NCBI RefSeq assembly: GCF_030013595.1
Contig: NZ_CP122768.1
Strand: one strand, 5' to 3'
Source: Escherichia coli
GTDB lineage: Bacteria; Pseudomonadota; Gammaproteobacteria; Enterobacterales; Enterobacteriaceae
Length of the DNA stretch: 64,000 nucleotides
Below the pieces are notes generated by a model. The model made no database searches. It was not told the DNA's origin and saw only the letters and a program-made list of their open reading frames with translations. This document shows, in pieces, positions 26,558-44,860 of this stretch (positions within the stretch are counted from its first letter, which is position 1; the number at the start of each line of letters is the position of its first letter). A program made the position numbers and the translations under genes.

Positions 26558-26572
26558 GGTAATGACTCCAAC

Positions 26573-27076
26573 TTACTGATAGTGTTTTATGTTCAGATAA
26601 TGCCCGATGACCTTGTCATGCAGCTCCACCGATTTTGAGAACGACAGTGACTTCCGTCCCAGCCTTGCCAGATGTTGTCTCAGATTCAGGTTATGCCGCT
26701 CAATGCGCTGAGTATAACGCTTGCTGATAACGTGCAGCTTTCCCTTCAGGCGTGATTCATACAGCGGCCAGCCATCCGTCATCCATACCACGACCTCAAA
26801 GGCCGACAGCAGGCTCAGAAGACGCTCCAGTGTGGCCAGAGTGCGTTCACCGAAGACGTGCGCCACAACCGTCCTCCGCATCCTGTCATACGCGTAAAAC
26901 AGCCAGCGCTGACGTGATTTAGCACCGACGTAGCCCCACTGTTCGTCCATTTCAGCGCAGACAATCACATCACTGCCCGGTTGTATGCGCGAGGTTACCG
27001 ACTGCGGCCTGAGTTTTTTAAGTGGCGGAAAATCGTGTTGAGGCCAACGCCAATAATGCGTGCACTGGCGCGACAT
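26573..27076 (-). CDS. insB: IS1 transposase InsB reading frame
   Basis: 167-aa ORF matching IS1 InsB with a few substitutions relative to the K-12 copy as recalled. Confidence 0.9.
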
Positions 27077-27270
27077 CCGACGCCATTCATGGCCATATCA
27101 ATGATTTTCTGGTGCGTACCGGGCTGAGAGGCGGCGTAAGTGAACTGTAGTTGCCATGTTTTACGGCAGTGAGAGCAGAGATAGCGCTGATGTCCGGCGG
27201 TGCTTTTGCCGTTACGCACCACCCCGTCAGTAGCTGAACAGGAGGGACAGCTGATAGAAACAGAAGCCAC
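26995..27270 (-). CDS. insA: IS1 InsA
   Basis: 91-aa [19 protein letters not shown]...; start codon here is GTG. Confidence 0.9.
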
Positions 27271-27325
27271 TGGAGCACCTCAAAAACACCATCATACACT
27301 AAATCAGTAAGTTGGCAGCATCACC

Positions 27326-28027
27326 GACAATGCAGATGGTTCAACCATGCTGGATAAACGTTATGTCATCACTAACGGTAATCAGCTGGCGATTCAAAAT
27401 GATTTACTGGAGAGTTTATCAAAAGCGTTAAACCAACCGTGGCCACAACGAATGCAGGAGATGCTCCAGCAAATTTTGCCTCATCGTGGTGCGTTATTAA
27501 CTAATTTTTATCAGGCACATGATTATTTACTGCATGGCGATGATAAATCATTGAACCGTGCCAGTGAATTATTAGGTGAGATTGTTCAATCATCCCCAGA
27601 ATTTACCTACGCGAGAGCAGAAAAAGCATTAGTTGATATCGTGCGCCATTCTCAACATCCTTTAGATGAAAAACAATTAGCAGCACTGAACACAGACATA
27701 GATAACATTGTTACACTACCGGAATTGAATAACCTGTCCATTATATATCAAATAAAAGCGGTCAGTGCTCTGGTAAAAGGTAAAACAGATGAGTCTTACC
27801 AGGCGATAAATACTGGCATTGATCTTGAAATGTCCTGGCTAAATTATGTGTTGCTTGGCAAGGTTTATGAAATGAAGGGGATGAACCGGGAAGCAGCTGA
27901 TGCATATCTCACCGCCTTTAATTTACGCCCAGGGGCAAACACCCTTTACTGGATTGAAAATGGTATATTCCAGACTTCTGTTCCTTATGTTGTACCTTAT
28001 CTCGACAAATTTCTCGCTTCAGAATAA
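27326..28027 (+). pseudogene. cadC: cadC 3' fragment (C-terminal about 233 codons of the ToxR-like activator); 5' half replaced by IS1
   Basis: ORF ends about 365 bp upstream of cadB in the position and orientation of cadC; begins abruptly at the IS1 end. Confidence 0.8.
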
Positions 28028-28392
28028 GTAACTCCCGGGTTGATTTATGCTCGGCAAGATTTGTTGTTGAGTTTTTGTATGTTTCTGTTGGTATAATATG
28101 TTGCGGCAATTTATTTGCCGCATAATTTTTATTACATAAATTTAACCAGAAAATGTCCCACAATCCATTGTAAATATTGAATGTTTATCTTTTCATGATA
28201 TCAACTTGCGATCCTGATGTGTTAATAAAAAACCTCAAGTTCTCACTTACAGAAACTTTTGTGTTATTTCACCTAATCTTTAGGATTAATCCTTTTTTCG
28301 TGAGTATTCTTAGCGCCAGTTTGGTCTGGTCAGGAAATAGTTATACATCATGACCCGGACTCCAAATTCAAAAATGAAATTAGGAGAAGAGC
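28028..28392 (+). promoter_or_regulatory. cadBA promoter/regulatory region (Pcad)
   Basis: Conserved intergenic region between cadC and cadB; individual CadC sites not mapped. Confidence 0.5.
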
Positions 28393-29727
28393 ATGAGTTC
28401 TGCCAAGAAGATCGGGCTATTTGCCTGTACCGGTGTTGTTGCCGGTAATATGATGGGGAGCGGTATTGCATTATTACCTGCGAACCTAGCAAGTATCGGT
28501 GGTATTGCTATCTGGGGTTGGATTATCTCTATTATTGGTGCAATGTCGCTGGCGTATGTATATGCCCGACTGGCAACAAAAAACCCGCAACAAGGTGGCC
28601 CAATTGCTTATGCCGGAGAAATTTCCCCTGCATTTGGTTTTCAGACAGGTGTTCTTTATTACCATGCTAACTGGATTGGTAACCTGGCGATTGGTATTAC
28701 CGCTGTATCTTATCTTTCCACCTTCTTCCCAGTATTAAATGATCCTGTTCCGGCGGGTATCGCCTGTATTGCTATCGTCTGGGTATTTACCTTTGTAAAT
28801 ATGCTCGGCGGTACCTGGGTAAGCCGTTTAACCACTATTGGTCTGGTGCTGGTTCTTATTCCTGTGGTAATGACAGCTATTGTTGGCTGGCATTGGTTTG
28901 ATGCTGCGACTTATGCTGCTAACTGGAATACTGCGGATACCACCGATGGTCATGCGATCATTAAAAGTATTCTGCTCTGCCTGTGGGCCTTCGTGGGTGT
29001 TGAATCCGCAGCTGTAAGTACTGGTATGGTTAAAAACCCGAAACGTACCGTTCCGCTGGCAACCATGCTGGGTACTGGTTTAGCAGGTATTGTTTATATC
29101 GCTGCGACTCAGGTGCTTTCCGGTATGTATCCGTCTTCTGTAATGGCAGCTTCCGGTGCTCCGTTTGCAATCAGTGCTTCAACTATCCTCGGTAACTGGG
29201 CTGCGCCGCTGGTTTCTGCATTCACCGCCTTTGCGTGCCTGACCTCTCTGGGCTCCTGGATGATGTTGGTAGGCCAGGCAGGTGTACGTGCCGCTAACGA
29301 CGGTAACTTCCCGAAAGTTTATGGTGAAGTCGACAGCAACGGTATTCCGAAAAAAGGTCTGCTGCTGGCTGCAGTGAAAATGACTGCCCTGATGATCCTC
29401 ATCACTCTGATGAACTCTGCCGGTGGTAAAGCATCTGACCTGTTCGGTGAACTGACCGGTATCGCAGTACTGCTGACTATGCTGCCGTACTTCTACTCTT
29501 GCGTTGACCTGATTCGTTTTGAAGGCGTTAACATCCGCAACTTTGTCAGCCTGATCTGCTCTGTACTGGGTTGCGTGTTCTGCTTCATCGCGCTGATGGG
29601 CGCAAGCTCCTTCGAGCTGGCAGGTACCTTCATCGTCAGCCTGATTATCCTGATGTTCTACGCTCGCAAAATGCACGAGCGCCAGAGCCACTCAATGGAT
29701 AACCACACAGCGTCTAACGCACATTAA
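28393..29727 (+). CDS. cadB: Lysine:cadaverine antiporter
   Basis: 444-aa APC-family transporter upstream of cadA. Confidence 0.95.
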   Translation: MSSAKKIGLFACTGVVAGNMMGSGIALLPANLASIGGIAIWGWIISIIGAMSLAYVYARLATKNPQQGGPIAYAGEISPAFGFQTGVLYYHANWIGNLAIGITAVSYLSTFFPVLNDPVPAGIACIAIVWVFTFVNMLGGTWVSRLTTIGLVLVLIPVVMTAIVGWHWFDAATYAANWNTADTTDGHAIIKSILLCLWAFVGVESAAVSTGMVKNPKRTVPLATMLGTGLAGIVYIAATQVLSGMYPSSVMAASGAPFAISASTILGNWAAPLVSAFTAFACLTSLGSWMMLVGQAGVRAANDGNFPKVYGEVDSNGIPKKGLLLAAVKMTALMILITLMNSAGGKASDLFGELTGIAVLLTMLPYFYSCVDLIRFEGVNIRNFVSLICSVLGCVFCFIALMGASSFELAGTFIVSLIILMFYARKMHERQSHSMDNHTASNAH

Positions 29728-29806
29728 TTAAAAGTATTTTCCGAGGCTCCTCCTTTCATTTTGTCCCATGTGTTGGGAGGGGCCTTTTTTACCTGGAGAT
29801 ATGACT

Positions 29807-31954
29807 ATGAACGTTATTGCAATATTGAATCACATGGGGGTTTATTTTAAAGAAGAACCCATCCGTGAACTTCATCGCGCGCTTGAACGTCTGAACTTCC
29901 AGATTGTTTACCCGAACGACCGTGACGACTTATTAAAACTGATCGAAAACAATGCGCGTCTGTGCGGCGTTATTTTTGACTGGGATAAATATAATCTCGA
30001 GCTGTGCGAAGAAATTAGCAAAATGAACGAGAACCTGCCGTTGTACGCGTTCGCTAATACGTATTCCACTCTCGATGTAAGCCTGAATGACCTGCGTTTA
30101 CAGATTAGCTTCTTTGAATATGCGCTGGGTGCTGCTGAAGATATTGCTAACAAGATCAAGCAGACCACTGACGAATATATCAACACTATTCTGCCTCCGC
30201 TGACCAAAGCACTGTTTAAATATGTTCGTGAAGGTAAATATACTTTCTGTACTCCTGGTCACATGGGCGGTACTGCATTCCAGAAAAGCCCGGTAGGTAG
30301 CCTGTTCTATGATTTCTTTGGTCCGAACACCATGAAATCTGATATTTCCATTTCAGTATCTGAACTGGGTTCTCTGCTGGATCACAGTGGTCCACACAAA
30401 GAAGCAGAACAGTATATCGCTCGCGTCTTTAACGCAGACCGCAGCTACATGGTGACCAACGGTACTTCCACTGCGAACAAAATTGTTGGTATGTACTCTG
30501 CTCCAGCAGGCAGCACCATTCTGATTGACCGTAACTGCCACAAATCGCTGACCCACCTGATGATGATGAGCGATGTTACGCCAATCTATTTCCGCCCGAC
30601 CCGTAACGCTTACGGTATTCTTGGTGGTATCCCACAGAGTGAATTCCAGCACGCTACCATTGCTAAGCGCGTGAAAGAAACACCAAACGCAACCTGGCCG
30701 GTACATGCTGTAATTACTAACTCTACCTATGATGGTCTGCTGTACAACACCGACTTCATCAAGAAAACACTGGATGTGAAATCCATCCACTTTGACTCCG
30801 CGTGGGTGCCTTACACCAACTTCTCACCGATTTACGAAGGTAAATGCGGTATGAGCGGTGGCCGTGTAGAAGGGAAAGTGATTTACGAAACCCAGTCTAC
30901 TCACAAACTGCTGGCGGCGTTCTCTCAGGCTTCCATGATCCACGTTAAAGGTGACGTAAACGAAGAAACCTTTAACGAAGCCTACATGATGCACACCACC
31001 ACTTCTCCGCACTACGGTATCGTGGCGTCCACTGAAACCGCTGCGGCGATGATGAAAGGCAATGCAGGTAAGCGTCTGATCAACGGTTCCATTGAACGTG
31101 CGATCAAATTCCGTAAAGAGATCAAACGTCTGAGAACGGAATCTGATGGCTGGTTCTTTGATGTATGGCAGCCGGATCATATCGATACGACTGAATGCTG
31201 GCCGCTGCGTTCTGACAGCACCTGGCACGGCTTCAAAAACATCGATAACGAGCACATGTATCTTGACCCGATCAAAGTCACCCTGCTGACTCCGGGGATG
31301 GAAAAAGACGGCACCATGAGCGACTTTGGTATTCCGGCCAGCATCGTGGCGAAATACCTCGACGAACATGGCATCGTTGTTGAGAAAACCGGTCCGTATA
31401 ACCTGCTGTTCCTGTTCAGCATCGGTATCGATAAGACCAAAGCACTGAGCCTGCTGCGTGCTCTGACAGACTTCAAACGTGCGTTCGATCTGAACCTGCG
31501 TGTGAAAAACATGCTGCCGTCTCTGTATCGTGAAGATCCTGAATTCTATGAAAACATGCGTATTCAGGAACTGGCTCAGAATATCCACAAACTGATTGTT
31601 CACCACAATCTGCCGGATCTGATGTATCGCGCATTTGAAGTTCTGCCGACCATGGTAATGACTCCGTATGCTGCGTTCCAGAAAGAGCTGCACGGTATGA
31701 CCGAAGAAGTTTACCTCGACGAAATGGTAGGTCGTATTAACGCCAATATGATCCTTCCGTATCCGCCGGGAGTTCCTCTGGTAATGCCGGGTGAAATGAT
31801 CACCGAAGAAAGCCGTCCGGTTCTGGAGTTCCTGCAGATGCTGTGTGAAATCGGCGCTCACTATCCGGGCTTTGAAACCGATATTCACGGTGCATACCGT
31901 CAGGCTGATGGCCGCTATACCGTTAAGGTATTGAAAGAAGAAAGCAAAAAATAA
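29807..31954 (+). CDS. cadA: Inducible lysine decarboxylase
   Basis: 715 aa from MNVIAILNHMGVYF...; full-length agreement with E. coli CadA as recalled. ORF track start at 29768 is an upstream in-frame extension. Confidence 0.95.
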   Translation: MNVIAILNHMGVYFKEEPIRELHRALERLNFQIVYPNDRDDLLKLIENNARLCGVIFDWDKYNLELCEEISKMNENLPLYAFANTYSTLDVSLNDLRLQISFFEYALGAAEDIANKIKQTTDEYINTILPPLTKALFKYVREGKYTFCTPGHMGGTAFQKSPVGSLFYDFFGPNTMKSDISISVSELGSLLDHSGPHKEAEQYIARVFNADRSYMVTNGTSTANKIVGMYSAPAGSTILIDRNCHKSLTHLMMMSDVTPIYFRPTRNAYGILGGIPQSEFQHATIAKRVKETPNATWPVHAVITNSTYDGLLYNTDFIKKTLDVKSIHFDSAWVPYTNFSPIYEGKCGMSGGRVEGKVIYETQSTHKLLAAFSQASMIHVKGDVNEETFNEAYMMHTTTSPHYGIVASTETAAAMMKGNAGKRLINGSIERAIKFRKEIKRLRTESDGWFFDVWQPDHIDTTECWPLRSDSTWHGFKNIDNEHMYLDPIKVTLLTPGMEKDGTMSDFGIPASIVAKYLDEHGIVVEKTGPYNLLFLFSIGIDKTKALSLLRALTDFKRAFDLNLRVKNMLPSLYREDPEFYENMRIQELAQNIHKLIVHHNLPDLMYRAFEVLPTMVMTPYAAFQKELHGMTEEVYLDEMVGRINANMILPYPPGVPLVMPGEMITEESRPVLEFLQMLCEIGAHYPGFETDIHGAYRQADGRYTVKVLKEESKK

Positions 31955-32012: not shown

Positions 32013-33470
32013 ATGAAAACACCCTCACAGCCGCGCGCGATATACTATATCGTGGCGATCCAAATCTGGGAGTACTTCAGTTTTTACGGCATGCGTGCCT
32101 TACTCATTCTCTATCTCACCCATCAGCTTGGTTTTGATGATAACCATGCCATCAGCCTGTTCAGCGCATATGCTTCTCTGGTTTACGTTACCCCTATTCT
32201 CGGCGGCTGGCTTGCCGACCGCCTGCTCGGCAACCGCACTGCAGTGATTGCCGGCGCGCTGTTAATGACCCTTGGCCATGTGGTGCTGGGCATTGATACA
32301 AATTCAACCTTTAGCCTGTATCTGGCGCTGGCAATCATTATTTGTGGCTACGGTTTATTCAAATCAAACATCAGCTGTTTGCTTGGCGAGCTCTACGACG
32401 AGAACGATCATCGACGTGATGGCGGTTTTTCGCTGCTGTATGCTGCAGGCAATATCGGTTCTATCGCCGCCCCCATCGCCTGCGGCCTGGCTGCTCAGTG
32501 GTATGGATGGCATGTTGGCTTTGCCCTTGCGGGTGGCGGCATGTTTATCGGTTTGTTGATTTTCTTAAGCGGTCATCGTCATTTCCAGTCCACGCGTAGT
32601 ATGGATAAGAAAGCGCTCACTAGCGTCAAATTTGCCTTACCAGTATGGAGCTGGTTAGTGGTGATGCTCTGTTTAGCCCCAGTATTTTTTACCCTGCTGC
32701 TGGAGAACGACTGGTCCGGATATTTGCTGGCGATCGTTTGCCTCATTGCAGCACAAATCATTGCCCGCATGATGATCAAATTCCCCGAACACCGCCGTGC
32801 TCTTTGGCAAATTGTATTGTTGATGTTTGTCGGGACGTTGTTCTGGGTACTGGCACAACAGGGCGGCAGTACCATCAGCTTGTTTATCGATCGCTTTGTG
32901 AATCGTCAGGCATTCAATATTGAAGTACCTACAGCACTATTCCAGTCGGTGAATGCCATTGCGGTGATGCTCGCTGGGGTTGTTCTGGCCTGGCTGGCGT
33001 CGCCAGAAAGCCGCGGCAATTCAGCATTGCGCGTCTGGCTGAAGTTTGCCTTTGGCTTACTGCTGATGGCTTGTGGCTTTATGTTGCTGGCATTTGATGC
33101 CCGACATGCAGCGGCTGGCGGTCAAGCGTCAATGGGCGTGATGGTATCCGGGCTGGCGCTAATGGGCTTTGCTGAACTCTTTATTGACCCGGTGGCGATT
33201 GCGCAAATCACGCGTCTGAAAATGTCTGGCGTATTAACCGGTATTTATATGCTGGCAACAGGCGCGGTCGCCAACTGGCTGGCAGGCGTCGTGGCACAGC
33301 AGACGACAGAGTCGCAAATTAGCGGTATGGCAATTGCCGCTTACCAGCGATTCTTTTCTCAGATGGGAGAGTGGACGTTGGCTTGTGTCGCGATCATCGT
33401 GGTATTGGCCTTTGCTACCCGTTTTCTGTTTAGCACGCCGACGAATATGATACAGGAGAGCAACGATTAA
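32013..33470 (+). CDS. dtpC: Dipeptide/tripeptide:H+ permease (POT family)
   Basis: 485-aa POT-family ORF in the conserved position between cadA and lysU. Confidence 0.9.
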
Positions 33471-33706
33471 CTGTCGTAAAAACAATTGGTTATGAATAAA
33501 TTAACTTTCAGTTTATCACACTAGCAAATCGAGATTAATAAGTCATTTAAACCATTTTTATGGTTATTTATTAGTGATATCAACTTGAGGTAAGCGTTAG
33601 TTTCGATAAGATAAACTGAGTTATTAATAGTCGAGGCAGATAATACAGTGTACCGATCTGTCTCTTTATCTACGCTAAATTGAAAGCTGGATTTAGAGGA
33701 ACCAAA

Positions 33707-35224
33707 ATGTCTGAACGAGAAACACGGGGAGCCAATGAGGCTATTGATTTTAACGATGAACTGAGAAATCGCCGCGAAAAACTGGCGGCACTACGTCAGC
33801 AAGGTGTGGCGTTTCCCAATGATTTTCGCCGCGACCATACCTCTGACCAGTTGCACGAAGAGTTTGATGCGAAGGATAACCAGGAACTGGAATCCTTAAA
33901 CATTGAAGTCTCGGTTGCTGGCCGAATGATGACCCGTCGTATCATGGGGAAAGCCTCCTTTGTAACGTTGCAGGATGTCGGTGGCCGTATTCAACTGTAC
34001 GTTGCAAGAGATAGCCTGCCAGAAGGTGTTTATAACGATCAGTTTAAAAAATGGGATCTGGGTGACATTATCGGTGCCCGCGGTACGCTGTTTAAGACGC
34101 AAACGGGTGAGCTTTCCATTCACTGTACTGAGCTGCGCCTGCTGACTAAAGCACTACGTCCTTTACCAGATAAATTCCATGGTCTGCAGGATCAGGAAGT
34201 CCGTTATCGTCAACGTTATCTGGACCTCATCGCTAACGATAAATCCCGTCAAACGTTTGTTGTCCGTTCAAAAATTCTGGCCGCTATCCGTCAGTTCATG
34301 GTCGCGCGCGGCTTTATGGAAGTAGAAACCCCGATGATGCAGGTAATTCCAGGTGGGGCATCTGCTCGCCCGTTTATTACCCATCATAACGCTCTGGATT
34401 TAGATATGTACCTGCGTATCGCGCCAGAGCTGTATCTGAAACGTCTGGTTGTAGGCGGTTTTGAACGGGTATTCGAAATCAACCGTAACTTCCGTAATGA
34501 AGGTATTTCTGTTCGCCATAATCCTGAGTTCACAATGATGGAACTCTACATGGCGTATGCGGATTACCACGATTTGATTGAACTGACAGAGTCACTGTTC
34601 CGCACCCTGGCACAAGAGGTTCTGGGTACCACTAAAGTCACTTATGGCGAGCATGTGTTTGATTTCGGCAAACCGTTTGAAAAACTCACCATGCGCGAAG
34701 CAATCAAAAAATATCGTCCAGAAACCGATATGGCCGACCTGGATAATTTTGATGCCGCTAAAGCATTAGCTGAATCTATTGGTATTACGGTAGAGAAAAG
34801 CTGGGGGCTGGGACGTATTGTCACGGAGATCTTTGATGAAGTGGCAGAAGCACATCTGATTCAGCCAACCTTTATTACGGAATATCCCGCAGAAGTGTCA
34901 CCGCTGGCGCGCCGTAATGATGTTAACCCGGAAATCACCGACCGATTTGAATTCTTCATCGGTGGTCGTGAAATCGGTAATGGTTTTAGCGAATTAAACG
35001 ACGCAGAAGATCAGGCTGAACGTTTCCAGGAACAGGTTAACGCTAAAGCTGCAGGTGACGACGAAGCCATGTTCTATGACGAAGATTACGTGACTGCGCT
35101 GGAATATGGTTTGCCACCAACCGCTGGTCTGGGTATTGGTATCGACCGAATGATTATGCTGTTTACAAACAGTCATACTATTCGCGACGTTATTCTCTTC
35201 CCGGCGATGCGCCCACAGAAATAA
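33707..35224 (+). CDS. lysU: Lysyl-tRNA synthetase, inducible isoform
   Basis: 505 aa from MSERETRG...; class II aaRS motifs; identification as lysU (not lysS) by genomic context. Confidence 0.92.
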
Positions 35225-35235
35225 TTTTCACTTTA

Positions 35236-35516: not shown

Positions 35517-35543
35517 TTTTTATGTTCTTCTTATCCTTCCTGG

Positions 35544-36066: not shown

Positions 36067-36339
36067 TCAACTGCGAATATCATCATACTCCCGCGTTTTA
36101 TCAAATTCGTGTTTCGCAAATGGGCATAGTGGGATAATTTTTCGTTTTTCCCGACGCATTTTTTCCACGACTTTCGCAACCAGCTGTTTACCAATCCCCT
36201 GCCCTTTCAGGCTTTCATCGACATCGGTATGTTCGATAATCGCTAAATTCTCTCCGGTCGGCACAAAGACAATTTCAGCGATTTGCTTGCCCTGTTCGTC
36301 ATTAATGTAAAATTTATTGTGGCCTTCGCGTATTTCCAT
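36067..36339 (-). CDS. yjdJ: GNAT-family acetyltransferase-like small protein
   Basis: 90-aa ORF in conserved position next to yjdI. Confidence 0.8.
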
Positions 36340-36350
36340 TTTACCCTCGC

Positions 36351-36581
36351 TTATTTATGACGGTATTTCAGCGCGCCGCTCGGGCACGTATCAATCACTT
36401 TAACCACAGTGGCAACGTCGACTTCATCCGGCATGATCCACGGCTTTCGTTTGAGATTAAATAACTTGCCGTTGCCACGTACGCAATTGCCAGAATGCTG
36501 ACATATCGCAGTATTGAAATAGACATCGATCTTTTCGCCGGTATAACAGCGATAACCCCCGTCCAGTAGCGCCCGATCCAT
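36351..36581 (-). CDS. yjdI: Small conserved protein YjdI
   Basis: 76-aa Cys-containing ORF in conserved position, divergent from dcuS. Confidence 0.75.
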
Positions 36582-36761
36582 GACCTTCCCTCTCTCATCA
36601 GTATGATTATCGCTATAAGCATAGCCCCGGAATCTTCATACAGCACTGGCAGTTTCCGTTGCCAGAATCTCTTCCCCTATATAGCCAATCATTCTTACTC
36701 CCTTTGAATTACCCGCCTCATCAGAGATAATGCTTAAGAAATTTGTCACACAAGGAAGCTG

Positions 36762-38393
36762 ATGAGACATTCATTGCCCTACCGTATGTTACGCAAACGT
36801 CCGATGAAATTGAGTACCACTGTGATCTTAATGGTCAGCGCGGTACTGTTCTCGGTGCTATTGGTGGTGCATCTGATTTACTTCTCGCAAATCAGTGATA
36901 TGACGCGAGACGGGCTAGCCAACAAGGCGCTGGCAGTGGCGCGTACCCTCGCCGACTCGCCGGAAATCCGTCAGGGCTTGCAGAAAAAACCTCAGGAGAG
37001 CGGCATCCAGGCCATCGCGGAAGCCGTGCGCAAACGCAACGATCTGCTATTTATTGTCGTTACCGATATGCAAAGTCTTCGCTACTCGCATCCTGAAGCC
37101 CAGCGTATTGGTCAGCCATTTAAAGGTGATGACATCCTTAAAGCGCTGAATGGCGAAGAAAATGTCGCTATCAATCGCGGTTTTCTGGCGCAGGCTTTAC
37201 GCGTATTTACCCCCATCTACGATGAAAATCATAAACAAATTGGCGTGGTGGCGATCGGCCTTGAGTTAAGTCGCGTGACCCAACAGATCAATGACAGTCG
37301 CTGGAGCATTATCTGGTCGGTATTATTTGGCATGCTGGTCGGACTGATCGGCACCTGCATTCTGGTTAACGTACTGAAAAAAATCCTTTTTGGCCTGGAA
37401 CCCTACGAAATCTCCACGCTGTTTGAGCAGCGCCAGGCCATGTTGCAGTCTATCAAAGAAGGCGTCGTTGCCGTGGACGATCGCGGTGAAGTCACGCTGA
37501 TCAACGATGCCGCACAAGAATTGCTGAATTACCGTAAGTCGCAGGACGATGAGAAACTGTCGACGCTAAGCCACTCGTGGTCACAGGTGGTAGATGTCTC
37601 GGAAGTGTTACGCGACGGTACCCCGCGGCGCGACGAAGAGATTACGATTAAAGACCGGCTATTACTGATCAACACCGTTCCGGTGCGCAGTAATGGCGTT
37701 ATCATCGGTGCCATTTCAACCTTCAGGGACAAAACTGAAGTACGTAAACTGATGCAGCGACTCGATGGTCTGGTCAACTATGCTGACGCACTTCGTGAAC
37801 GATCCCACGAATTTATGAATAAATTGCACGTGATTCTCGGATTATTGCATCTGAAGAGTTATAAGCAGTTGGAAGATTACATTCTCAAAACAGCCAATAA
37901 CTATCAGGAAGAGATTGGCTCTCTGCTGGGTAAGATCAAATCTCCGGTTATCGCTGGTTTTTTAATCAGCAAGATTAACCGCGCGACCGATTTAGGCCAT
38001 ACGCTGATTTTAAACAGTGAAAGCCAGCTGCCAGACAGCGGCAGTGAAGACCAGGTCGCGACGCTGATTACCACGTTGGGAAATCTGATAGAAAACGCGC
38101 TGGAAGCATTAGGGCCGGAACCCGGAGGCGAAATTAGCGTAACATTGCACTACCGTCACGGCTGGCTGCACTGTGAAGTTAATGATGATGGACCGGGGAT
38201 CGCACCCGATAAAATCGATCACATTTTTGACAAAGGTGTCTCGACAAAAGGAAGCGAGCGAGGCGTCGGTTTAGCACTTGTCAAACAACAGGTAGAAAAT
38301 CTCGGCGGCAGCATCGCCGTGGAATCGGAACCCGGGATTTTCACACAATTTTTTGTCCAGATACCCTGGGACGGGGAGAGGTCGAACAGATGA
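36762..38393 (+). CDS. dcuS: C4-dicarboxylate sensor histidine kinase
   Basis: 543-aa ORF with two TM helices, periplasmic sensing domain, PAS and HATPase domains. Confidence 0.95.
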   Translation: MRHSLPYRMLRKRPMKLSTTVILMVSAVLFSVLLVVHLIYFSQISDMTRDGLANKALAVARTLADSPEIRQGLQKKPQESGIQAIAEAVRKRNDLLFIVVTDMQSLRYSHPEAQRIGQPFKGDDILKALNGEENVAINRGFLAQALRVFTPIYDENHKQIGVVAIGLELSRVTQQINDSRWSIIWSVLFGMLVGLIGTCILVNVLKKILFGLEPYEISTLFEQRQAMLQSIKEGVVAVDDRGEVTLINDAAQELLNYRKSQDDEKLSTLSHSWSQVVDVSEVLRDGTPRRDEEITIKDRLLLINTVPVRSNGVIIGAISTFRDKTEVRKLMQRLDGLVNYADALRERSHEFMNKLHVILGLLHLKSYKQLEDYILKTANNYQEEIGSLLGKIKSPVIAGFLISKINRATDLGHTLILNSESQLPDSGSEDQVATLITTLGNLIENALEALGPEPGGEISVTLHYRHGWLHCEVNDDGPGIAPDKIDHIFDKGVSTKGSERGVGLALVKQQVENLGGSIAVESEPGIFTQFFVQIPWDGERSNR

Positions 38394-39109
38394 TCAATGT
38401 ATTAATTATCGATGACGACGCAATGGTCGCGGAGCTGAATCGCCGATACGTAGCACAAATCCCAAGCTTTCAATGCTGTGGAACAGCCTCGACGCTGGAG
38501 AAAGCCAAAGAGATTATCTTCAATAGCGATACGCCTATCGACCTGATATTGCTCGATATCTATATGCAAAAAGAGAACGGGCTCGATTTACTGCCTGTCC
38601 TGCATAACGCGCGTTGCAAAAGTGATGTGATTGTCATCTCCTCCGCAGCCGATGCGGCAACCATTAAAGATTCGCTGCATTACGGTGTCGTGGATTACCT
38701 GATCAAACCCTTCCAGGCTTCCCGCTTTGAAGAGGCGCTCACCGGCTGGCGGCAAAAGAAAATGGCGCTGGAAAAACATCAGTATTATGACCAGGCCGAG
38801 CTTGATCAGCTAATCCACGGCAGCAGCTCCAACGAGCAGGATCCTCGTCGCTTGCCAAAAGGCTTAACGCCGCAGACGTTACGCACGCTGTGCCAGTGGA
38901 TTGACGCGCATCAGGACTATGAGTTTTCAACCGACGAGCTGGCTAACGAGGTTAACATTTCGCGTGTTTCCTGCCGTAAATACCTCATCTGGCTGGTCAA
39001 CTGCCACATCTTGTTCACCAGTATCCATTATGGCGTCACGGGGCGTCCGGTTTACCGTTACCGTATTCAGGCAGAACACTACTCACTGCTGAAACAATAT
39101 TGCCAATAA
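38390..39109 (+). CDS. dcuR: C4-dicarboxylate response regulator
   Basis: 239-aa response regulator; ATGA overlap with dcuS. Confidence 0.95.
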   Translation: MINVLIIDDDAMVAELNRRYVAQIPSFQCCGTASTLEKAKEIIFNSDTPIDLILLDIYMQKENGLDLLPVLHNARCKSDVIVISSAADAATIKDSLHYGVVDYLIKPFQASRFEEALTGWRQKKMALEKHQYYDQAELDQLIHGSSSNEQDPRRLPKGLTPQTLRTLCQWIDAHQDYEFSTDELANEVNISRVSCRKYLIWLVNCHILFTSIHYGVTGRPVYRYRIQAEHYSLLKQYCQ

Positions 39110-39679
39110 CGGATCGCTGGTTATCTGTAAGTAATAATTATTACCGTAATGCAAAATATTCCTGGCACAAGTTACATTCTTCATCAGTAAAACTTGTGCC
39201 AGATCAAATATAATTATCCCTCCATCATCGTTAAAAATTAATATCTCTTCAGATGAACGGTGTTTTTAATTTCAAAACGCTAACAAAAGTTAATTAACTA
39301 TTATGTCACCCGCATTATGTGTATTTTTACCCACAAATGGGTAGATCAGATTAATCTATAAACCTAATGATATCTGCCCTGAGAACAAAAAATAGACCGA
39401 TAAATATCAATAAGATAACAGCAAACAAAACATTAACATCTGCGCAGTACAAACTATAAACCCATCGCCAGAGAGTCATTCTCTCTGAAAAAGCCGCTTA
39501 TCACAGTGCATAAATTTGCCGCTGCTTTAATCAGCCAATATTCACTGTGAGGTATTTGCTAAAGCCGGTAACGACCAAACGGATATTTAGTCAGGCTCTG
39601 AAAACAGTTCATACAAAACAGAACGTGACTGTGATCTATTCAGCAAAAATTTAAATAGGATTATCGCGAGGGTTCACAC
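39110..39679 (+). promoter_or_regulatory. Long AT-rich dcuB upstream control region
   Basis: 570-bp non-coding AT-rich interval ahead of dcuB; sites not individually mapped. Confidence 0.4.
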
Positions 39680-41020
39680 ATGTTATTTACTATCCAACTT
39701 ATCATAATACTGATATGTCTGTTTTATGGTGCCAGAAAGGGTGGTATCGCGCTGGGTTTATTAGGCGGTATCGGTCTGGTCATTCTGGTCTTCGTCTTCC
39801 ACCTTCAGCCAGGTAAACCACCGGTTGATGTCATGCTGGTTATCATTGCGGTGGTGGCGGCATCGGCGACCTTGCAAGCTTCGGGCGGTCTTGATGTCAT
39901 GCTGCAAATTGCCGAGAAGCTGCTGCGCCGCAACCCGAAATATGTCTCAATTGTCGCGCCGTTTGTGACCTGTACGCTGACCATTCTTTGCGGTACGGGT
40001 CATGTGGTTTACACCATTCTGCCGATCATCTACGACGTCGCTATTAAGAACAACATCCGTCCGGAACGCCCGATGGCGGCAAGTTCTATCGGTGCACAGA
40101 TGGGGATTATCGCCAGTCCGGTGTCGGTTGCAGTCGTGTCTCTGGTTGCGATGCTGGGTAATGTCACCTTTGATGGTCGCCATCTTGAGTTCCTCGACCT
40201 GCTAGCAATCACCATTCCATCGACGTTAATCGGTATCCTGGCGATCGGTATCTTCAGCTGGTTCCGCGGTAAAGATCTGGATAAAGACGAAGAGTTCCAG
40301 AAATTCATCTCCGTACCGGAAAACCGTGAGTATGTTTACGGTGATACCGCGACGCTGCTGGATAAAAAACTGCCGAAAAGCAACTGGCTTGCAATGTGGA
40401 TCTTCCTCGGGGCAATCGCTGTAGTCGCCCTTCTTGGTGCTGATTCGGACCTGCGTCCATCCTTCGGCGGCAAACCGCTGTCGATGGTACTGGTTATTCA
40501 GATGTTTATGCTGCTGACCGGGGCGCTGATTATTATCCTGACCAAAACCAATCCCGCGTCTATCTCAAAAAACGAAGTCTTCCGTTCCGGTATGATCGCC
40601 ATCGTGGCGGTGTACGGTATCGCATGGATGGCAGAAACCATGTTCGGTGCGCATATGTCTGAAATTCAGGGCGTACTGGGTGAAATGGTGAAAGAGTATC
40701 CGTGGGCCTATGCCATTGTTCTGCTGCTGGTTTCCAAGTTTGTAAACTCTCAGGCTGCGGCGCTGGCGGCGATTGTTCCGGTCGCGCTGGCGATCGGCGT
40801 TGATCCGGCATACATCGTGGCTTCAGCACCGGCTTGCTACGGTTATTACATCCTGCCGACTTATCCGAGCGATCTGGCAGCGATTCAGTTTGACCGTTCC
40901 GGCACCACCCACATCGGTCGCTTCGTCATCAACCACAGCTTTATTCTGCCGGGGTTGATTGGTGTGAGCGTATCGTGCGTCTTCGGCTGGATCTTCGCCG
41001 CGATGTACGGGTTCTTATAA
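39680..41020 (+). CDS. dcuB: Anaerobic C4-dicarboxylate antiporter
   Basis: 446-aa polytopic membrane ORF. Confidence 0.95.
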
Positions 41021-41029
41021 ATGCACTTT

Positions 41030-41065
41030 GCGTGCCGCCCGTGACTACGCGGCACGCCATTTTCG
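41030..41065 (+). terminator. Hairpin with T-tract after dcuB
   Basis: gcgtgccgc ... gcggcacgc followed by CATTTTCG. Confidence 0.55.
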
Positions 41066-41097
41066 AATAACAAATACAGAGTTACAGGCTGGAAGCT

Positions 41098-42744
41098 ATG
41101 TCAAACAAACCCTTTATCTACCAGGCACCTTTCCCGATGGGGAAAGACAATACCGAATACTATCTACTCACTTCCGATTACGTTAGCGTTGCCGACTTCG
41201 ACGGCGAAACCATTCTGAAAGTGGAACCAGAAGCCCTGACCCTGCTGGCGCAGCAAGCCTTTCACGACGCTTCTTTCATGCTCCGTCCGGCACACCAGAA
41301 ACAGGTTGCGGCTATTCTTCACGATCCAGAAGCCAGCGAAAACGACAAGTACGTGGCGCTGCAATTCTTAAGAAACTCCGAAATCGCCGCCAAAGGCGTG
41401 CTGCCGACCTGCCAGGATACCGGCACCGCAATCATCGTCGGTAAAAAAGGTCAGCGCGTGTGGACCGGCGGCGGTGATGAAGAAGCACTGTCGAAAGGCG
41501 TGTACAACACCTATATCGAAGATAACCTGCGCTACTCGCAAAACGCGGCGCTGGACATGTACAAAGAGGTCAACACCGGCACTAACCTGCCTGCGCAAAT
41601 CGACCTGTACGCGGTAGATGGCGATGAGTACAAATTCCTCTGTGTCGCTAAAGGCGGCGGCTCTGCCAACAAAACCTATCTCTACCAGGAAACCAAAGCC
41701 CTGCTGACTCCCGGCAAACTGAAAAACTTCCTCGTTGAGAAAATGCGTACCCTCGGTACTGCAGCCTGCCCGCCGTACCATATCGCGTTTGTGATTGGCG
41801 GTACGTCTGCGGAAACCAACCTGAAAACCGTCAAGTTAGCAAGCGCTCACTATTATGATGAACTGCCGACGGAAGGGAACGAACATGGTCAGGCGTTCCG
41901 CGATGTCCAACTGGAACAGGAACTGCTGGAAGAGGCCCAGAAACTCGGTCTTGGCGCGCAGTTTGGCGGTAAATACTTCGCGCACGACATTCGCGTTATC
42001 CGTCTGCCACGTCACGGCGCATCCTTCCCGGTAGGCATGGGAGTCTCCTGCTCCGCTGACCGTAACATTAAAGCGAAAATCAACCGCGAAGGTATCTGGA
42101 TCGAAAAACTGGAACACAATCCAGGCCAGTACATTCCACAAGAACTGCGTCAGGCCGGTGAAGGCGAAGCGGTGAAAGTCGACCTTAACCGCCCGATGAA
42201 AGAGATCCTCGCCCAGCTTTCGCAATATCCGGTTTCCACTCGTTTGTCGCTCACCGGCACCATTATTGTGGGTCGAGATATTGCACACGCCAAGCTGAAA
42301 GAGCTGATTGACTCCGGTAAAGAACTTCCGCAGTACATCAAAGATCACCCGATCTACTACGCGGGTCCGGCGAAAACGCCTGCCGGTTATCCATCAGGTT
42401 CACTTGGCCCAACCACCGCAGGTCGTATGGACTCCTACGTGGATCTGCTGCAATCCCACGGCGGCAGCATGATCATGCTGGCGAAAGGTAACCGCAGTCA
42501 GCAGGTTACCGACGCGTGTCATAAACATGGCGGCTTCTACCTCGGTAGTATCGGCGGTCCGGCGGCGGTACTGGCGCAGCAGAGCATCAAGCATCTGGAA
42601 TGCGTCGCTTATCCGGAGCTGGGTATGGAAGCTATCTGGAAAATCGAAGTAGAAGATTTCCCGGCGTTTATCCTGGTCGATGACAAAGGCAACGACTTCT
42701 TCCAGCAAATCGTCAACAAACAGTGCGCGAACTGCACTAAGTAA
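41098..42744 (+). CDS. fumB: Class I (Fe-S) fumarate hydratase, anaerobic isozyme
   Basis: 548-aa ORF downstream of dcuB. Confidence 0.93.
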
Positions 42745-42866
42745 CCTCTTCGGCCCAGCGCCTGGCAGCATGCTGCCAGGTGATCCCCCTGGGCCACCTC
42801 TTTTGCGATTGTAATTTCACGCTTGCTGGTGAATAGTCAGTATTTTCCCTGACTTGCGAACTCACC

Positions 42867-43496
42867 ATGACCCGCACACTCAAGCCGTTAATTCTTAACA
42901 CCGGCGCACTGGCGCTAACGTTAATCCTGATTTATACCGGCATTTCGGCCAATGACAAACTCACCTGGCTGATGGAAGTGACACCGGTGATTATTGTCGT
43001 GCCGCTACTGCTTGCCACCGCTAAACGTTATCCGTTAACGCCGCTGCTCTATACGCTCATTTTCTTTCACGCCATCATCCTGATGGTCGGCGGACAATAC
43101 ACCTACGCGAAAGTCCCCGTTGGTTTTGAGGTGCAGGAATGGCTGGGGTTGAGTCGTAATCCGTATGACAAACTGGGGCATTTTTTCCAAGGGCTGGTGC
43201 CTGCACTGGTGGCACGAGAGATCCTTGTGCGCGGGATGTACGTTCGCGGACATAAGATGGTGGCGTTTCTGGTCTGCTGCGTGGCGCTGGCGATAAGCGC
43301 GATGTATGAATTAATCGAGTGGTGGGCGGCGCTGGCAATGGGTCAGGGAGCGGATGATTTTCTCGGCACCCAGGGCGACCAGTGGGACACGCAATCCGAT
43401 ATGTTCTGCGCGCTGCTTGGCGCATTAACGACGGTGATATTCCTCGCTCGCTTTCATTGCCGCCAGCTACGGCGCTTTGGCTTGATAACCGGATAA
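42867..43496 (+). CDS. yjdF: Inner membrane protein YjdF
   Basis: 209-aa membrane ORF in conserved position. Confidence 0.85.
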   Translation: MTRTLKPLILNTGALALTLILIYTGISANDKLTWLMEVTPVIIVVPLLLATAKRYPLTPLLYTLIFFHAIILMVGGQYTYAKVPVGFEVQEWLGLSRNPYDKLGHFFQGLVPALVAREILVRGMYVRGHKMVAFLVCCVALAISAMYELIEWWAALAMGQGADDFLGTQGDQWDTQSDMFCALLGALTTVIFLARFHCRQLRRFGLITG

Positions 43497-43515
43497 CAAC
43501 GTGCGCTTTGTTGAC

Positions 43516-43549
43516 GCCGGATGCGGCGTGAATTCCTTATCCGGTCTAC
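43516..43549. repeat. REP (repetitive extragenic palindromic) element
   Basis: gccggatgcggcgtgaattccttatccggtctac, classic REP sequence. Confidence 0.8.
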
Positions 43550-44083
43550 AAAATTTGCAAATCCAAAGCATTACATTAAGACATGGCCTGATAAACATAT
43601 CGCATCAGGCCATTTTCGTTAGCTATTGTCCACGTCAGGCTTTCACATCACTCACTGCACCGACCGGAATATCAGCATGAACAGGCTCGGGCGGTACTTT
43701 GCGATATTTATCCAGCAGATGGATCTGGATCCTGCGCAGCGTGCACCATTGAGGCGATAGAAACGGAAGTAGAGAATCAGCGTTACCATGAAAAACAGAG
43801 TCGGTAGAGCAATCATAATAAACTGCATACCTAATAGGGCTTGCGTAGACTGTTCAACATTCGGTACATAGCCAATCATCCCTAACACAACCGCAATGAA
43901 AAAAGCCGCAAAGGCTGAACCGCCCTTCACCACCATAGTCTGCACGGAGTAAGCGATGCTTTCACAGCGTACGTGCAGTTTATATTCACCGTAATCAACG
44001 GTATCTGCCACCATGATGACCTGTAATACCCAGAAAAGCGCCGTTCCCACATTCAGCAAGATACCCGCAATCACAATGAGGAC

Positions 44084-44092
44084 GACGTTGTG
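44084..44092. repeat. Target-site duplication (gacgttgtg), left copy
   Basis: Identical 9 bp directly flank both ends of IS1 copy 2. Confidence 0.9.
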
Positions 44093-44107
44093 GGTAATGA
44101 CTCCAAC

Positions 44108-44611
44108 TTACTGATAGTGTTTTATGTTCAGATAATGCCCGATGACCTTGTCATGCAGCTCCACCGATTTTGAGAACGACAGTGACTTCCGTCCCAGCCT
44201 TGCCAGATGTTGTCTCAGATTCAGGTTATGCCGCTCAATGCGCTGAGTATAACGCTTGCTGATAACGTGCAGCTTTCCCTTCAGGCGTGATTCATACAGC
44301 GGCCAGCCATCCGTCATCCATACCACGACCTCAAAGGCCGACAGCAGGCTCAGAAGACGCTCCAGTGTGGCCAGAGTGCGTTCACCGAAGACGTGCGCCA
44401 CAACCGTCCTCCGCATCCTGTCATACGCGTAAAACAGCCAGCGCTGACGTGATTTAGCACCGACGTAGCCCCACTGTTCGTCCATTTCAGCGCAGACAAT
44501 CACATCACTGCCCGGTTGTATGCGCGAGGTTACCGACTGCGGCCTGAGTTTTTTAAGTGGCGGAAAATCGTGTTGAGGCCAACGCCAATAATGCGTGCAC
44601 TGGCGCGACAT
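44108..44611 (-). CDS. insB: IS1 transposase InsB reading frame
   Basis: Identical translation to copy 1. Confidence 0.9.
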
Positions 44612-44805
44612 CCGACGCCATTCATGGCCATATCAATGATTTTCTGGTGCGTACCGGGCTGAGAGGCGGCGTAAGTGAACTGTAGTTGCCATGTTTTACG
44701 GCAGTGAGAGCAGAGATAGCGCTGATGTCCGGCGGTGCTTTTGCCGTTACGCACCACCCCGTCAGTAGCTGAACAGGAGGGACAGCTGATAGAAACAGAA
44801 GCCAC
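44530..44805 (-). CDS. insA: IS1 InsA
   Basis: Identical translation to copy 1. Confidence 0.9.
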
Positions 44806-44860
44806 TGGAGCACCTCAAAAACACCATCATACACTAAATCAGTAAGTTGGCAGCATCACC

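What the first reader, a model, noticed from the sequence alone, without database searches (positions are those of the whole stretch)
26558..44860. Two identical, directly oriented IS1 copies bracket a 17.5-kb core block
Copy 1 (26558-27325) and copy 2 (44093-44860) have the same orientation and, by eye, identical sequence. They flank cadC', cadBA, dtpC, lysU, ghoST, yjdJI, dcuSR, dcuB, fumB, yjdF and the 3' part of melB. Homologous recombination between them would delete the whole block in one step, or it could move as a composite element.
Basis: seen in the sequence. Interest (0 to 1): 0.45.

Follow-up and report, generated by a model that had tools for sequence, protein, structure and literature searches.

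The report
IS1 pair flanking cad–mel genes
Two identical IS1 insertion sequences do bracket 16.8 kb of ordinary E. coli chromosome, but one is the scar of an earlier ~20-kb deletion that broke the cadC regulator and the other is a very recent hit in a recurrent IS1 target in melB, so this is ordinary IS-driven genome erosion, not a transposon that has moved.

Summary
IS1 copy 1 (26558-27325) and copy 2 (44093-44860) are each 768 bp, 100% identical, intact and in the same orientation. They bracket 13 intact genes (cadBA to yjdF) plus fragments of cadC and melB.

The two copies have different histories. Copy 2 is a simple insertion in melB with a perfect 9-bp target duplication (GACGTTGTG). It is absent from genomes 99.9-99.99% identical to the window. 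Copy 1 has no duplication. It joins nt 11 of deoK, in a pheU island, to nt 838 of cadC. Comparators have about 20-21 kb there instead (deoQ, an Ag43/CbtA island, the 5' part of cadC).

Public genomes of one lineage show the series: no island; island with intact cadC; deoK'|IS1|cadC' with melB apparently intact; and the window. The outer flanks do not match and the block keeps its native gene order, so it did not arrive as a composite transposon. The predicted 17.5-kb IS1 x IS1 deletion was not found. cadBA is intact but lacks its activator, a pattern known from EIEC.

Side finding: IS1 has hit the same melB site in at least four lineages. This is a known kind of structure and of modest interest.

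The parts
19039..22356 (.). vpe-like locus of the pheU island: LacI-family regulator (19039-20070, minus strand) and PTS IIA, IIB and IIC (20341-22356, plus strand). This is context to the left of copy 1.
   Evidence: NCBIfam hits. Same genes annotated in P13-6 and FWSEC0007. vpe and deoK operons are described together in STEC islands (PMC6455142).
23278..25619 (-). deoX-like gene (aldose-1-epimerase family, 23278-24291) and deoP-like gene (FucP-type permease, 24303-25619) of the deoxyribose operon.
   Evidence: fucP family hit. Annotation in comparators.
25647..26557 (-). deoK' : ribokinase-family (deoxyribokinase-like) gene that has lost its first 10 nt, its promoter and the divergent regulator deoQ. 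This is the left flank of copy 1.
   Evidence: The match to P13-6 ends at locus position 18058, whereas the annotated gene runs to 18068. NCBIfam ribokinase hit.
26558..27325 (-). IS1 copy 1, complete, with no target-site duplication (left flank CAATAACTG, right flank GACAATGCA). It marks a deletion junction.
   Evidence: 21,161 bp of P13-6 are missing here.
27326..28027 (+). cadC' : codons 280-512 only (periplasmic sensor domain). The DNA-binding domain, the transmembrane segment and the cadC promoter are deleted.
   Evidence: Breakpoint at cadC nt 838. NCBIfam aligns the ORF to positions 292-515 of 516. Only the Pfam CadC_C1 domain remains, whereas full-length CadC has Trans_reg_C plus CadC_C1.
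28393..31954 (+). cadB (28393-29727) and cadA (29807-31954). Both are intact, and their proteins are 100% identical to the common E. coli CadB and CadA.
32013..43496 (.). dtpC, lysU, ghoT, ghoS, yjdJ, yjdI, dcuS, dcuR, dcuB, fumB and yjdF. All are full length.
43635..44092 (-). 3' fragment of melB (from about codon 325 to the end). It also carries a 1-nt deletion at 43744 that shifts the frame near the C-terminus.
   Evidence: The coordinate of the original stop codon is inferred from the P13-6 alignment.
44084..44092 (.). Left copy of the 9-bp target-site duplication GACGTTGTG.
   Evidence: Present as a single copy in P13-6 and HCP5S3_I2.
44093..44860 (-). IS1 copy 2, complete. A simple insertion in melB.
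   Evidence: The site is empty in the same-lineage genomes L023-L026 and HCP5S3_I2.
44861..44869 (.). Right copy of the 9-bp target-site duplication GACGTTGTG.
44861..45832 (-). 5' fragment of melB (codons 1 to about 324). The frame reads on into IS1 for 8 codons and stops at 44834.

Best explanation
The feature is two separate IS1 events on the chromosome of one E. coli lineage, probably porcine. It is not one mobile unit.

Step 1 (shown by comparison). The lineage carried, at the tRNA gene pheU, an island with fec, aryl-polyene, vpe and deoXPK-deoQ genes and an Ag43/CbtA prophage-like right arm. This island ended just upstream of an intact cadC.

Step 2 (junction shown, mechanism inferred). 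An IS1-associated deletion removed about 20-21 kb, running from nt 11 of deoK to nt 837 of cadC. It left one IS1 (copy 1) without a target duplication. The mechanism was either recombination between two direct IS1 copies or intramolecular IS1 transposition.

Consequence (inferred from established CadC biology). cadBA and their promoter are intact but the activator has lost its DNA-binding and membrane segments, so lysine decarboxylase should be silent. deoK has lost its start codon, its promoter and its regulator.

Step 3 (shown). Later, an identical IS1 inserted into melB at GACGTTGTG, making a 9-bp duplication (copy 2). The site is a recurrent IS1 target, which explains the location better than proximity to copy 1 does.

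Step 4 (prediction only). The two identical direct copies can now recombine and delete 17,535 bp, namely one IS1 plus cadC'-cadBA-dtpC-lysU-ghoST-yjdJI-dcuSR-dcuB-fumB-yjdF-melB'. This would extend the erosion of the cad region.
For: The copies are identical, direct and intact.

Copy 2:
- Perfect 9/9 duplication.
- The target is present once in P13-6 and HCP5S3_I2.
- The site is empty in L023-L026 (99.89-99.99% identical to the window) and in HCP5S3_I2 (99.95%).

Copy 1:
- No duplication.
- Both flanks are colinear and co-oriented with P13-6, with 21,161 bp missing between them.
- FWSEC0007 has the same gene order without P13-6's extra IS2.

Same-lineage series:
- HCP5S3_I2 has pheU, an integrase remnant and an intact cadC, with no island.
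- L067-L069 have the island's right arm next to an intact cadC, and are 99.985-100% identical to the window over 6.7 kb. L069's island part differs from P13-6 by about 2 mismatches in 5.4 kb.
- L006-L010 and L012 have exactly the window's two copy-1 junctions at 99.99-100% identity.
- The L006 parent contig starts at IS1|cadC' and is 34.8 kb long, whereas copy 2 lies 16.8 kb away. That strain therefore has copy 1 but not copy 2 (inferred from contig geometry).

Function: only the CadC_C1 domain is left. CadB and CadA are unchanged. In EIEC strains with an intact cadBA, silencing depends only on loss of CadC and is reversed by supplying cadC (PMC4156367).

Hot spot: IS1 lies at the identical melB position in L019, 24AR0357 and EC291. 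These carry different IS1 isoforms (93.7% and 96.6% identical to the window's) and flanks diverged by 1.3-1.5%.
Against: - The mechanism of step 2 is not resolved. No genome was found with a simple IS1 insertion at deoK nt 10 or at cadC nt 838.
- The exact size of the deletion in this lineage is taken from a different strain (P13-6). The full island was not seen in a same-lineage genome. Only its last 6 kb was seen (L067-L069).
- The order 'copy 1 before copy 2' rests on contig length, not on a sequence I read across melB in a copy-1 strain.
- The lysine-decarboxylase-negative phenotype is inferred, not tested.
- The donor of copy 2 is unknown. In mutation-accumulation lines the excess of nearby IS1 insertions is confined to distances under 10 kb (23 observed versus 5.1 expected). 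Between 10 and 50 kb there is no excess (14 versus about 20 by subtraction). Local hopping from copy 1 is therefore not supported.
- The source organism is not identified directly.
Confidence: 0.85

Rival explanations
1. The 17.5-kb unit is an IS1 composite transposon (Tn9-like or r-determinant-like) that transposed as a unit into this position.
For: Two complete, identical, directly repeated IS1 copies with intact ends and intact transposase frames bracket a gene block. IS1 composites with direct repeats are known (own knowledge: Tn9, the r-determinant of R100/NR1).
Against: - The outer flanks CAATAACTG and GACGTTGTG share no duplication.
- Copy 2 has its own private 9-bp duplication, so it inserted alone.
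- The block and everything to its right are in native E. coli gene order, and are 99.9% identical to the island-free relative HCP5S3_I2.
- Same-lineage genomes have the block without copy 2, or without either copy.
Confidence: 0.02
2. The copy-1 junction was not made by an in-situ deletion. Instead, foreign island DNA was imported by homologous recombination, with the right-hand crossover inside an IS1 already resident in the recipient's cadC. A donor IS1 lay in deoK.
For: Identity to P13-6 changes abruptly at copy 1: 2 mismatches in 26.6 kb to the left, 1.3% divergence to the right. The closest complete core relative has no island at pheU. pheU occupancy varies within the lineage, with three different states.
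Against: - Same-lineage genomes exist with the island's right arm next to an intact cadC. One of them is nearly identical to P13-6's island. That is the intermediate expected for an in-situ deletion.
- The identity step is expected anyway at an island/core boundary that the deletion removed.
- No genome with a simple IS1 insertion at cadC nt 838 was found. The nearest, in EH2252, is 12 bp away and has its own duplication.
Confidence: 0.1
3. The two copies are identical because of assembly or polishing artefacts (a collapsed IS consensus), or copy 2 is a misassembly.
For: Identical multi-copy IS elements are a classic source of assembly error.
Against: - Independent public assemblies reproduce the IS1|cadC' and deoK'|IS1 junctions base for base.
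- Copy 2 has a clean 9-bp duplication around a site that other genomes show empty.
- A same-lineage contig (L027) stops within 5 nt of the copy-2 junction.
- The same isoform occurs at 100% identity in other genomes and plasmids.
Confidence: 0.02

Closest known systems
Deletions by recombination between direct IS1 or IS5 copies in E. coli mutation-accumulation lines (Lee et al. 2016, PMC5009759)
   Same: A single IS is left at a deletion junction with no target duplication, as at copy 1. Two direct IS1 copies are a substrate for the next deletion. New IS1 insertions carry an 8-9-bp duplication, as at copy 2.
   Different: In those lines most recombination was between copies 1-3 kb apart. Here the copies are 16.8 kb apart, and the earlier deletion was about 20 kb. 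The present pair has not been seen to recombine.
Silencing of the cad locus through cadC in enteroinvasive E. coli and loss of cad in Shigella (Casalino et al. as summarised in PMC4156367; Shigella overview in PMC7373316)
   Same: cadBA is intact while cadC is destroyed. IS1 is involved (EIEC 6.81 has an IS1 insertion in cadC). The expected phenotype is lysine-decarboxylase-negative.
   Different: Nothing shows that the source is invasive. The closest relatives and the IS1 isoform point to porcine E. coli. Here cadC lost its 5' 837 nt through a deletion of about 20 kb reaching into a pheU island, not through a simple insertion. No selective benefit was tested.
STEC O117:K1:H7 cadC rearrangement (PMC3739510)
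   Same: A non-Shigella E. coli lost lysine decarboxylase activity through rearrangement at cadC, next to island DNA at this locus.
   Different: There, a large aerobactin-carrying fragment was inserted into cadC, with a 90-bp 5' deletion. Here there is an IS1-bounded deletion and different island content.
IS1-flanked composite elements (Tn9; the r-determinant of R100/NR1; the IS1-flanked argF segment of E. coli K-12). Recalled from own knowledge, not tested here.
   Same: Two IS1 copies in direct orientation bracket a segment of several to more than 20 kb. That segment can be deleted, excised as a circle or amplified by recombination between the IS1 copies.
   Different: Those elements are found at non-native sites or on plasmids and have been shown to move or amplify. 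The present block lies in its native chromosomal position and shows no sign of having moved.
pheU/pheV islands with vpe and deoK operons and an Ag43/Cah-like gene in LEE-negative STEC (Montero et al. 2019, PMC6455142; deoK in PAI I-AL862, PMC7545054)
   Same: The DNA to the left of copy 1 (LacI, PTS IIA/B/C, deoX, deoP, deoK) and the deleted part (deoQ, Ag43-type autotransporter, CbtA/CbeA) match that kind of island.
   Different: This concerns the context only. In the window the island is truncated by the IS1-associated deletion.

Membership tests
IS1 family insertion sequence | Length about 768 bp with imperfect terminal inverted repeats of about 23 bp | tested here: met
   Both copies are 768 bp. 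The ends GGTAATGACTCCAACTTACTGAT and GGTGATGCTGCCAACTTACTGAT match at 18 of the first 23 positions.
IS1 family insertion sequence | insA and insB' frames joined by an A6C -1 frameshift site, with an IS1-family transposase | tested here: met
   NCBIfam NF033558 transpos_IS1 hits both ORFs. InsA is 91 aa, the InsB' frame is open, and AAAAAAC lies at nt 307.
IS1 family insertion sequence | 8-9-bp target-site duplication on simple insertion | tested here: met
   Copy 2 has GACGTTGTG on both sides, and this sequence is single in empty sites. Copy 1 has none, which marks it as rearranged rather than as not being an IS1.
Composite (compound) transposon that has transposed | Two IS copies with functional outer ends bracketing a passenger segment | tested here: met
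Composite (compound) transposon that has transposed | Target-site duplication flanking the whole unit (outer flanks identical) | tested here: not met
   The outer flanks are CAATAACTG (left of copy 1) and GACGTTGTG (right of copy 2).
Composite (compound) transposon that has transposed | The passenger is found away from its native locus, or at several loci or replicons | tested here: not met
   The block is colinear with cadC...melB-melA-melR-adiA in P13-6, HCP5S3_I2 and thousands of E. coli genomes.
IS-mediated deletion junction | A single IS lacking a target duplication, whose two flanks are colinear and co-oriented in relatives but separated there by extra DNA | tested here: met
   Copy 1. 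Precursor states exist in the same lineage.
IS-mediated deletion junction | Mechanism assigned (recombination between two IS copies, or intramolecular transposition) | not testable with these tools
   Both mechanisms give the same product. No single-insertion precursor was found at either endpoint.
Pathoadaptive cad silencing ('black hole' type) of Shigella/EIEC | Loss of function of the cad system by mutation of cadC or cadBA | tested here: met
   cadC has lost codons 1-279 and its promoter. That this causes loss of function is inferred from PMC4156367.
Pathoadaptive cad silencing ('black hole' type) of Shigella/EIEC | The host is an invasive (pINV-carrying) Shigella or EIEC lineage | tested here: inconclusive
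   The window holds no invasion genes and the source is unidentified. The nearest relatives and the IS1 isoform are from pigs. Only two IS copies occur in 64 kb.
Pathoadaptive cad silencing ('black hole' type) of Shigella/EIEC | Loss of cadaverine increases virulence or fitness | not testable with these tools
   This needs phenotype and infection assays.

The most novel reading that the evidence does not exclude
A porcine E. coli lineage is undergoing stepwise, IS1-driven dismantling of its cad region, parallel to the 'black hole' formation of Shigella and EIEC. cadC has already been destroyed. The second IS1 now primes the rest of the locus (cadBA and 11 neighbouring genes) for one-step loss. 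Selection would act against cadaverine production (and melibiose uptake) in this niche. In addition, the melB site would be a true sequence- or structure-specific IS1 target, not explained by AT-richness.
Probability: 0.12. Interest if true: 0.45.

Novelty: new member of a known kind. Interest (0 to 1): 0.25.

Why it matters
The case is a well-resolved natural example of how IS1 reshapes a chromosome in steps. Public genomes of one lineage capture all four states: an empty pheU site; an island next to an intact cadC; an IS1-bounded deletion of about 20 kb that silences the cad activator; and a second IS1 that arms a further 17.5-kb deletion.

It shows that cadC inactivation with an intact cadBA, best known from enteroinvasive E. 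coli, also arises in what look like porcine commensal or pathogenic E. coli.

It also flags one exact position in melB that IS1 has hit independently in at least four lineages. That is useful for anyone studying IS1 target choice or using melibiose fermentation as a typing trait.

None of this changes current understanding. It is an instance of known mechanisms.

Tried and rejected
- **Finding the source genome.** No complete RefSeq E. coli genome has the arrangement. A scan of species-representative genomes for the deoK'|IS1 junction found nothing. A full-text search for the assembly and run accessions gave only false hits. Protein cluster records gave no name for CadC'.
- **Protein anchors for same-lineage contigs.** DtpC, DcuS and the restored MelB allele are too widespread to pick out the lineage. 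MelA and the lineage's full CadC worked.
- **Reconstructed proteins.** The IS-less but frameshifted MelB (467 aa) is not on record, so the 1-nt deletion is private to the window. A chimeric CadC (commonest N-terminus plus the window's tail) matched only an unrelated 2.6-kb contig, 99.45% identical.
- **E21 and NCCP12480** looked like similar IS1 arrangements but have IS1 upstream of cadC and in yjdJ respectively. They are unrelated.
- **Shigella as the source** was considered at first and set aside. Exact copies of the IS1 isoform, the island and the nearest core relatives are all from pig-associated E. coli.
- **Local hopping from copy 1 as the origin of copy 2** was rejected as unsupported. 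The published proximity bias does not reach 17 kb.
- **AT-richness as the explanation of the melB hot spot** was rejected. The site lies at the 64th percentile of 40-nt windows in melB.


Full report
**1. Observation**

The two elements are real. Window 26558-27325 and 44093-44860 are each 768 bp and identical at all positions. They are in the same orientation, 17,535 bp apart start to start, and are the only repeat of at least 100 nt in the window.

Each is a complete IS1:
- imperfect terminal inverted repeats;
- IS1-family transposase hits on both reading frames;
- a 91-aa InsA, an open InsB' frame and the AAAAAAC frameshift site.

The transposase is on the minus strand in both.

All 13 complete genes are full length. 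CadB and CadA are 100% identical to the common E. coli proteins.

**2. The two copies are not equivalent**

Copy 2 is flanked by a perfect 9-bp direct repeat, GACGTTGTG. That sequence occurs once at the corresponding place in intact melB genes. Copy 2 is therefore a simple insertion at about codon 322 of melB.

Copy 1 has no duplication. Its left flank is CAATAACTG and its right flank GACAATGCA.

- Left of copy 1 is a ribokinase-family gene missing its first 10 nt. Next come a FucP-type permease and an aldose-epimerase-family gene (deoK', deoP, deoX), then a LacI/PTS locus and an aryl-polyene cluster.
- Right of copy 1 is cadC, starting at nt 838.

**3. What is missing at copy 1**

In E. coli O141:H4 P13-6 the order is: pheU, integrase, fec, aryl-polyene cluster, LacI-PTS, deoX-deoP-deoK, deoQ, an ilvN fragment, a prophage-like arm (Ag43-type autotransporter, antirestriction, RadC, CbeA/CbtA, DUF4942), an integrase remnant, then cadC-cadB-cadA through to melB.

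- Window 1-26557 matches this genome with 2 mismatches in 26,557 nt.
- The match then resumes at cadC nt 838, at 98.7% identity.
- 21,161 bp of P13-6 are absent between those points.
- O103:H2 FWSEC0007 has the same order without P13-6's extra IS2, so the loss is about 20-21 kb.

Both flanks keep the order and orientation they have in the comparators. Deletion is therefore the simplest reading.

The island content (vpe-like PTS locus, deoK operon, Ag43/Cah-like gene) matches islands described at phe-tRNA genes in LEE-negative STEC and other pathotypes (PMC6455142; PMC7545054).

**4. The lineage and the order of events**

No complete RefSeq E. coli genome (5,426) has the window's arrangement or the deoK'|IS1 junction. 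The core lineage is nevertheless well represented.

| State | Genomes or contigs | Features |
|---|---|---|
| 0 | HCP5S3_I2 (pig faeces, UK) | 99.95% identical over 27326-44092, 99.91% over 44860-64000; no island at pheU; intact cadC whose C-terminal 233 residues equal the window's fragment; both IS1 target sites empty |
| 1 | L067-L069 | The island's right arm directly upstream of an intact cadC; L069's island part differs from P13-6 by about 2 mismatches in 5.4 kb |
| (variant) | L066, L070 | A different island next to an intact cadC |
| (variant) | L073 (run SRR30668402) | Intact cadC |
| 2 | L006-L010 | Start 28-57 nt inside IS1 and continue into cadC nt 838, at 99.99-100% identity to the window |
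| 2 | L012 | Carries deoK'|IS1 at 100% identity |
| 3 | The window | Copy 1 junctions plus IS1 in melB and a 1-nt deletion at 43744 |

That lineage's exact CadC protein occurs in 146 collection blocks. All eight contexts examined (L066-L073) are 99.985-100% identical to the window over 6.7 kb.

The parent contig of L006 is 34.8 kb long starting from that junction, whereas copy 2 lies only 16.8 kb away. That strain therefore has copy 1 but not copy 2.

Four other same-lineage loci (L023-L026) show the melB site empty. One contig (L027) ends within 5 nt of the copy-2 junction, which suggests that at least one other isolate shares copy 2.

The series is therefore: no island; island with intact cadC; deoK'|IS1|cadC'; then the window with a second IS1 in melB.

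**5. Mechanism**

Shown:
- the junction sequences;
- the absence (copy 1) and presence (copy 2) of a target duplication;
- the missing DNA;
- the intermediate states.

Inferred:
- Copy 1 arose either by recombination between two direct IS1 copies (one in deoK, one in cadC) or by intramolecular IS1 transposition from one of these sites to the other. Both leave one IS1 without a duplication. I found no genome with a simple insertion at either endpoint, so I cannot choose between them. The nearest case is EH2252, with an independent IS1 12 bp further into cadC and its own duplication GGTTCAACC.
- An alternative is import of island DNA by recombination with a crossover inside IS1. This is less likely, because the island-plus-intact-cadC state exists in the lineage.
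- Copy 2 is identical to copy 1 because it is young, not because it must derive from copy 1. The isoform is a minority one (99% identity or more in 150 of 9,595 matching records). It is present at 100% identity in several porcine E. coli chromosomes and plasmids. The published proximity bias of IS1 is confined to distances under 10 kb (PMC5009759).

**6. Consequences**

CadC' keeps only the periplasmic CadC_C1 domain. The winged-helix DNA-binding domain, the membrane segment and the promoter are gone. cadBA and the cadC-cadB intergenic region are intact.

By analogy with EIEC strains, the cad system should be silent. In those strains an intact cadBA is silent solely for lack of CadC and is reactivated by a cadC plasmid (PMC4156367).

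deoK has lost its start, its promoter and its regulator. melB is split, and in the window it also carries a private 1-nt deletion at 43744.

**7.

Deletion by IS1 x IS1 recombination is mechanistically expected. IS-IS recombination deletions run at about 4.5e-5 per genome per generation, with IS1 among the main contributors (PMC5009759). The product was not found: no complete genome has the deoK'|IS1 junction.

- Copy 1 itself marks a deletion of about 20 kb.
- EC291 has IS1 at the identical right-hand melB junction with 462 bp missing on the left.
- 24AR0357 has IS1 at the identical left-hand junction with about 190 bp missing on the right.

Movement as a composite element is not supported as history: there is no outer duplication, copy 2 has a private one, and gene order is native. 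It remains only a formal possibility.

**8. Comparison with known systems, and verdict**

The structure works like other IS1-bounded segments and IS-mediated deletions. The functional outcome matches the known cadC-targeted silencing of lysine decarboxylase. It fails the tests for a transposed composite transposon. Membership in the Shigella/EIEC pathoadaptive class cannot be claimed, because the host appears to be a pig-associated E. coli and no fitness effect is known.

It is a new instance of known mechanisms. Interest is modest (0.25). It is raised slightly by the unusually complete series of intermediate states and by the exact-site recurrence of IS1 in melB.

Noticed in passing
window 44084-44092 / 44861-44869 (melB codon ~322); also L004, L019, L063: IS1 has inserted at exactly this melB position in at least four lineages: the window; GCA_004103985.1 (flanks 1.5% diverged); 24AR0357 (IS1 isoform 93.7% identical); and EC291 (isoform 96.6% identical). 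About 48 of 5,426 complete genomes carry IS1 within about 300 nt of it, at six or more different offsets. One group of 12 genomes has it 11 nt away. The site is not unusually AT-rich (64th percentile of 40-nt windows in melB), so the reason for the hot spot is unexplained.
   Followed up: partly
window 43744: A 1-nt deletion in the 3' part of melB relative to the same-lineage genome L024 (SRR30668402) shifts the frame, so the last ~35 residues are replaced. L023, L025, L026 and HCP5S3_I2 each show a single gap in their alignments over this stretch, consistent with the same difference. It looks like decay of an already broken gene.
   Followed up: partly
window 1-26557 versus 27326-64000: Identity to E. 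coli O141:H4 P13-6 is 99.992% left of copy 1 (island DNA) and 98.6-98.7% right of it (core). The same island segment is 100% identical over 4 kb in many unrelated serotypes (O103:H2, O78:H4, ETEC). This indicates recent horizontal spread of the island.
   Followed up: partly
pheU locus in same-lineage genomes (L065, L066-L070): Within one core lineage (99.95% identity or more), the pheU site is empty in HCP5S3_I2, occupied by the Ag43/CbtA-type island in L067-L069, and occupied by a different island (DnaB- and ParA-like genes) in L066 and L070. That is rapid turnover at a single tRNA site.
   Followed up: partly
window 26540-26557 and 25647-26540 (minus strand): IS1 copy 1 is transcribed toward deoK'. 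An in-frame ATG 17 nt beyond the IS1 end opens a 297-aa ORF, which is DeoK lacking 9 residues. Read-through from IS1 could in principle express deoK'PX without its normal promoter and regulator. The 297-aa form is also called as a gene in genomes with an intact deoK, so it is not diagnostic of the junction.
   Followed up: no
cadC in other genomes: IS1 recurs in or next to cadC in several unrelated complete genomes. EH2252 has it 12 bp from the window's breakpoint, with LEE at pheU. WCHEC050613, CD09, O121 201805972 and S1-INA-02-B have it within about 0.7 kb. E21 has it upstream of cadC. WCHEC050613 has IS1 near both cadC and melB, as the window does, but at different positions.
   Followed up: partly
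adiA: window 48677-50947; L023 and L064: adiA (arginine decarboxylase) is intact in the window. It is split or frameshifted in two same-lineage genomes (GCA_900479155.1 and HCP5S3_I2).
   Followed up: no
loci L038-L042, L044, L046, L047: Several E. coli genomes that share the window's DcuS protein lack melB altogether. yjdF is extended to 216 aa and abuts melA. Loss of melB by other routes is therefore common.
   Followed up: no
window 22572-22856 (minus strand): A 94-aa IS3-family transposase orfA remnant lies between the PTS locus and deoX. It is conserved at the same place in all island copies examined (P13-6, FWSEC0007, L011-L017).
   Followed up: no
window 62826-62908: The alignments to P13-6 overlap by 83 nt here, and identity drops to 96.3% beyond this point (the crfC-yjdM intergenic region). 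HCP5S3_I2 is colinear through it. 24AR0357 has another IS1 and a deletion in crfC at this place.
   Followed up: no
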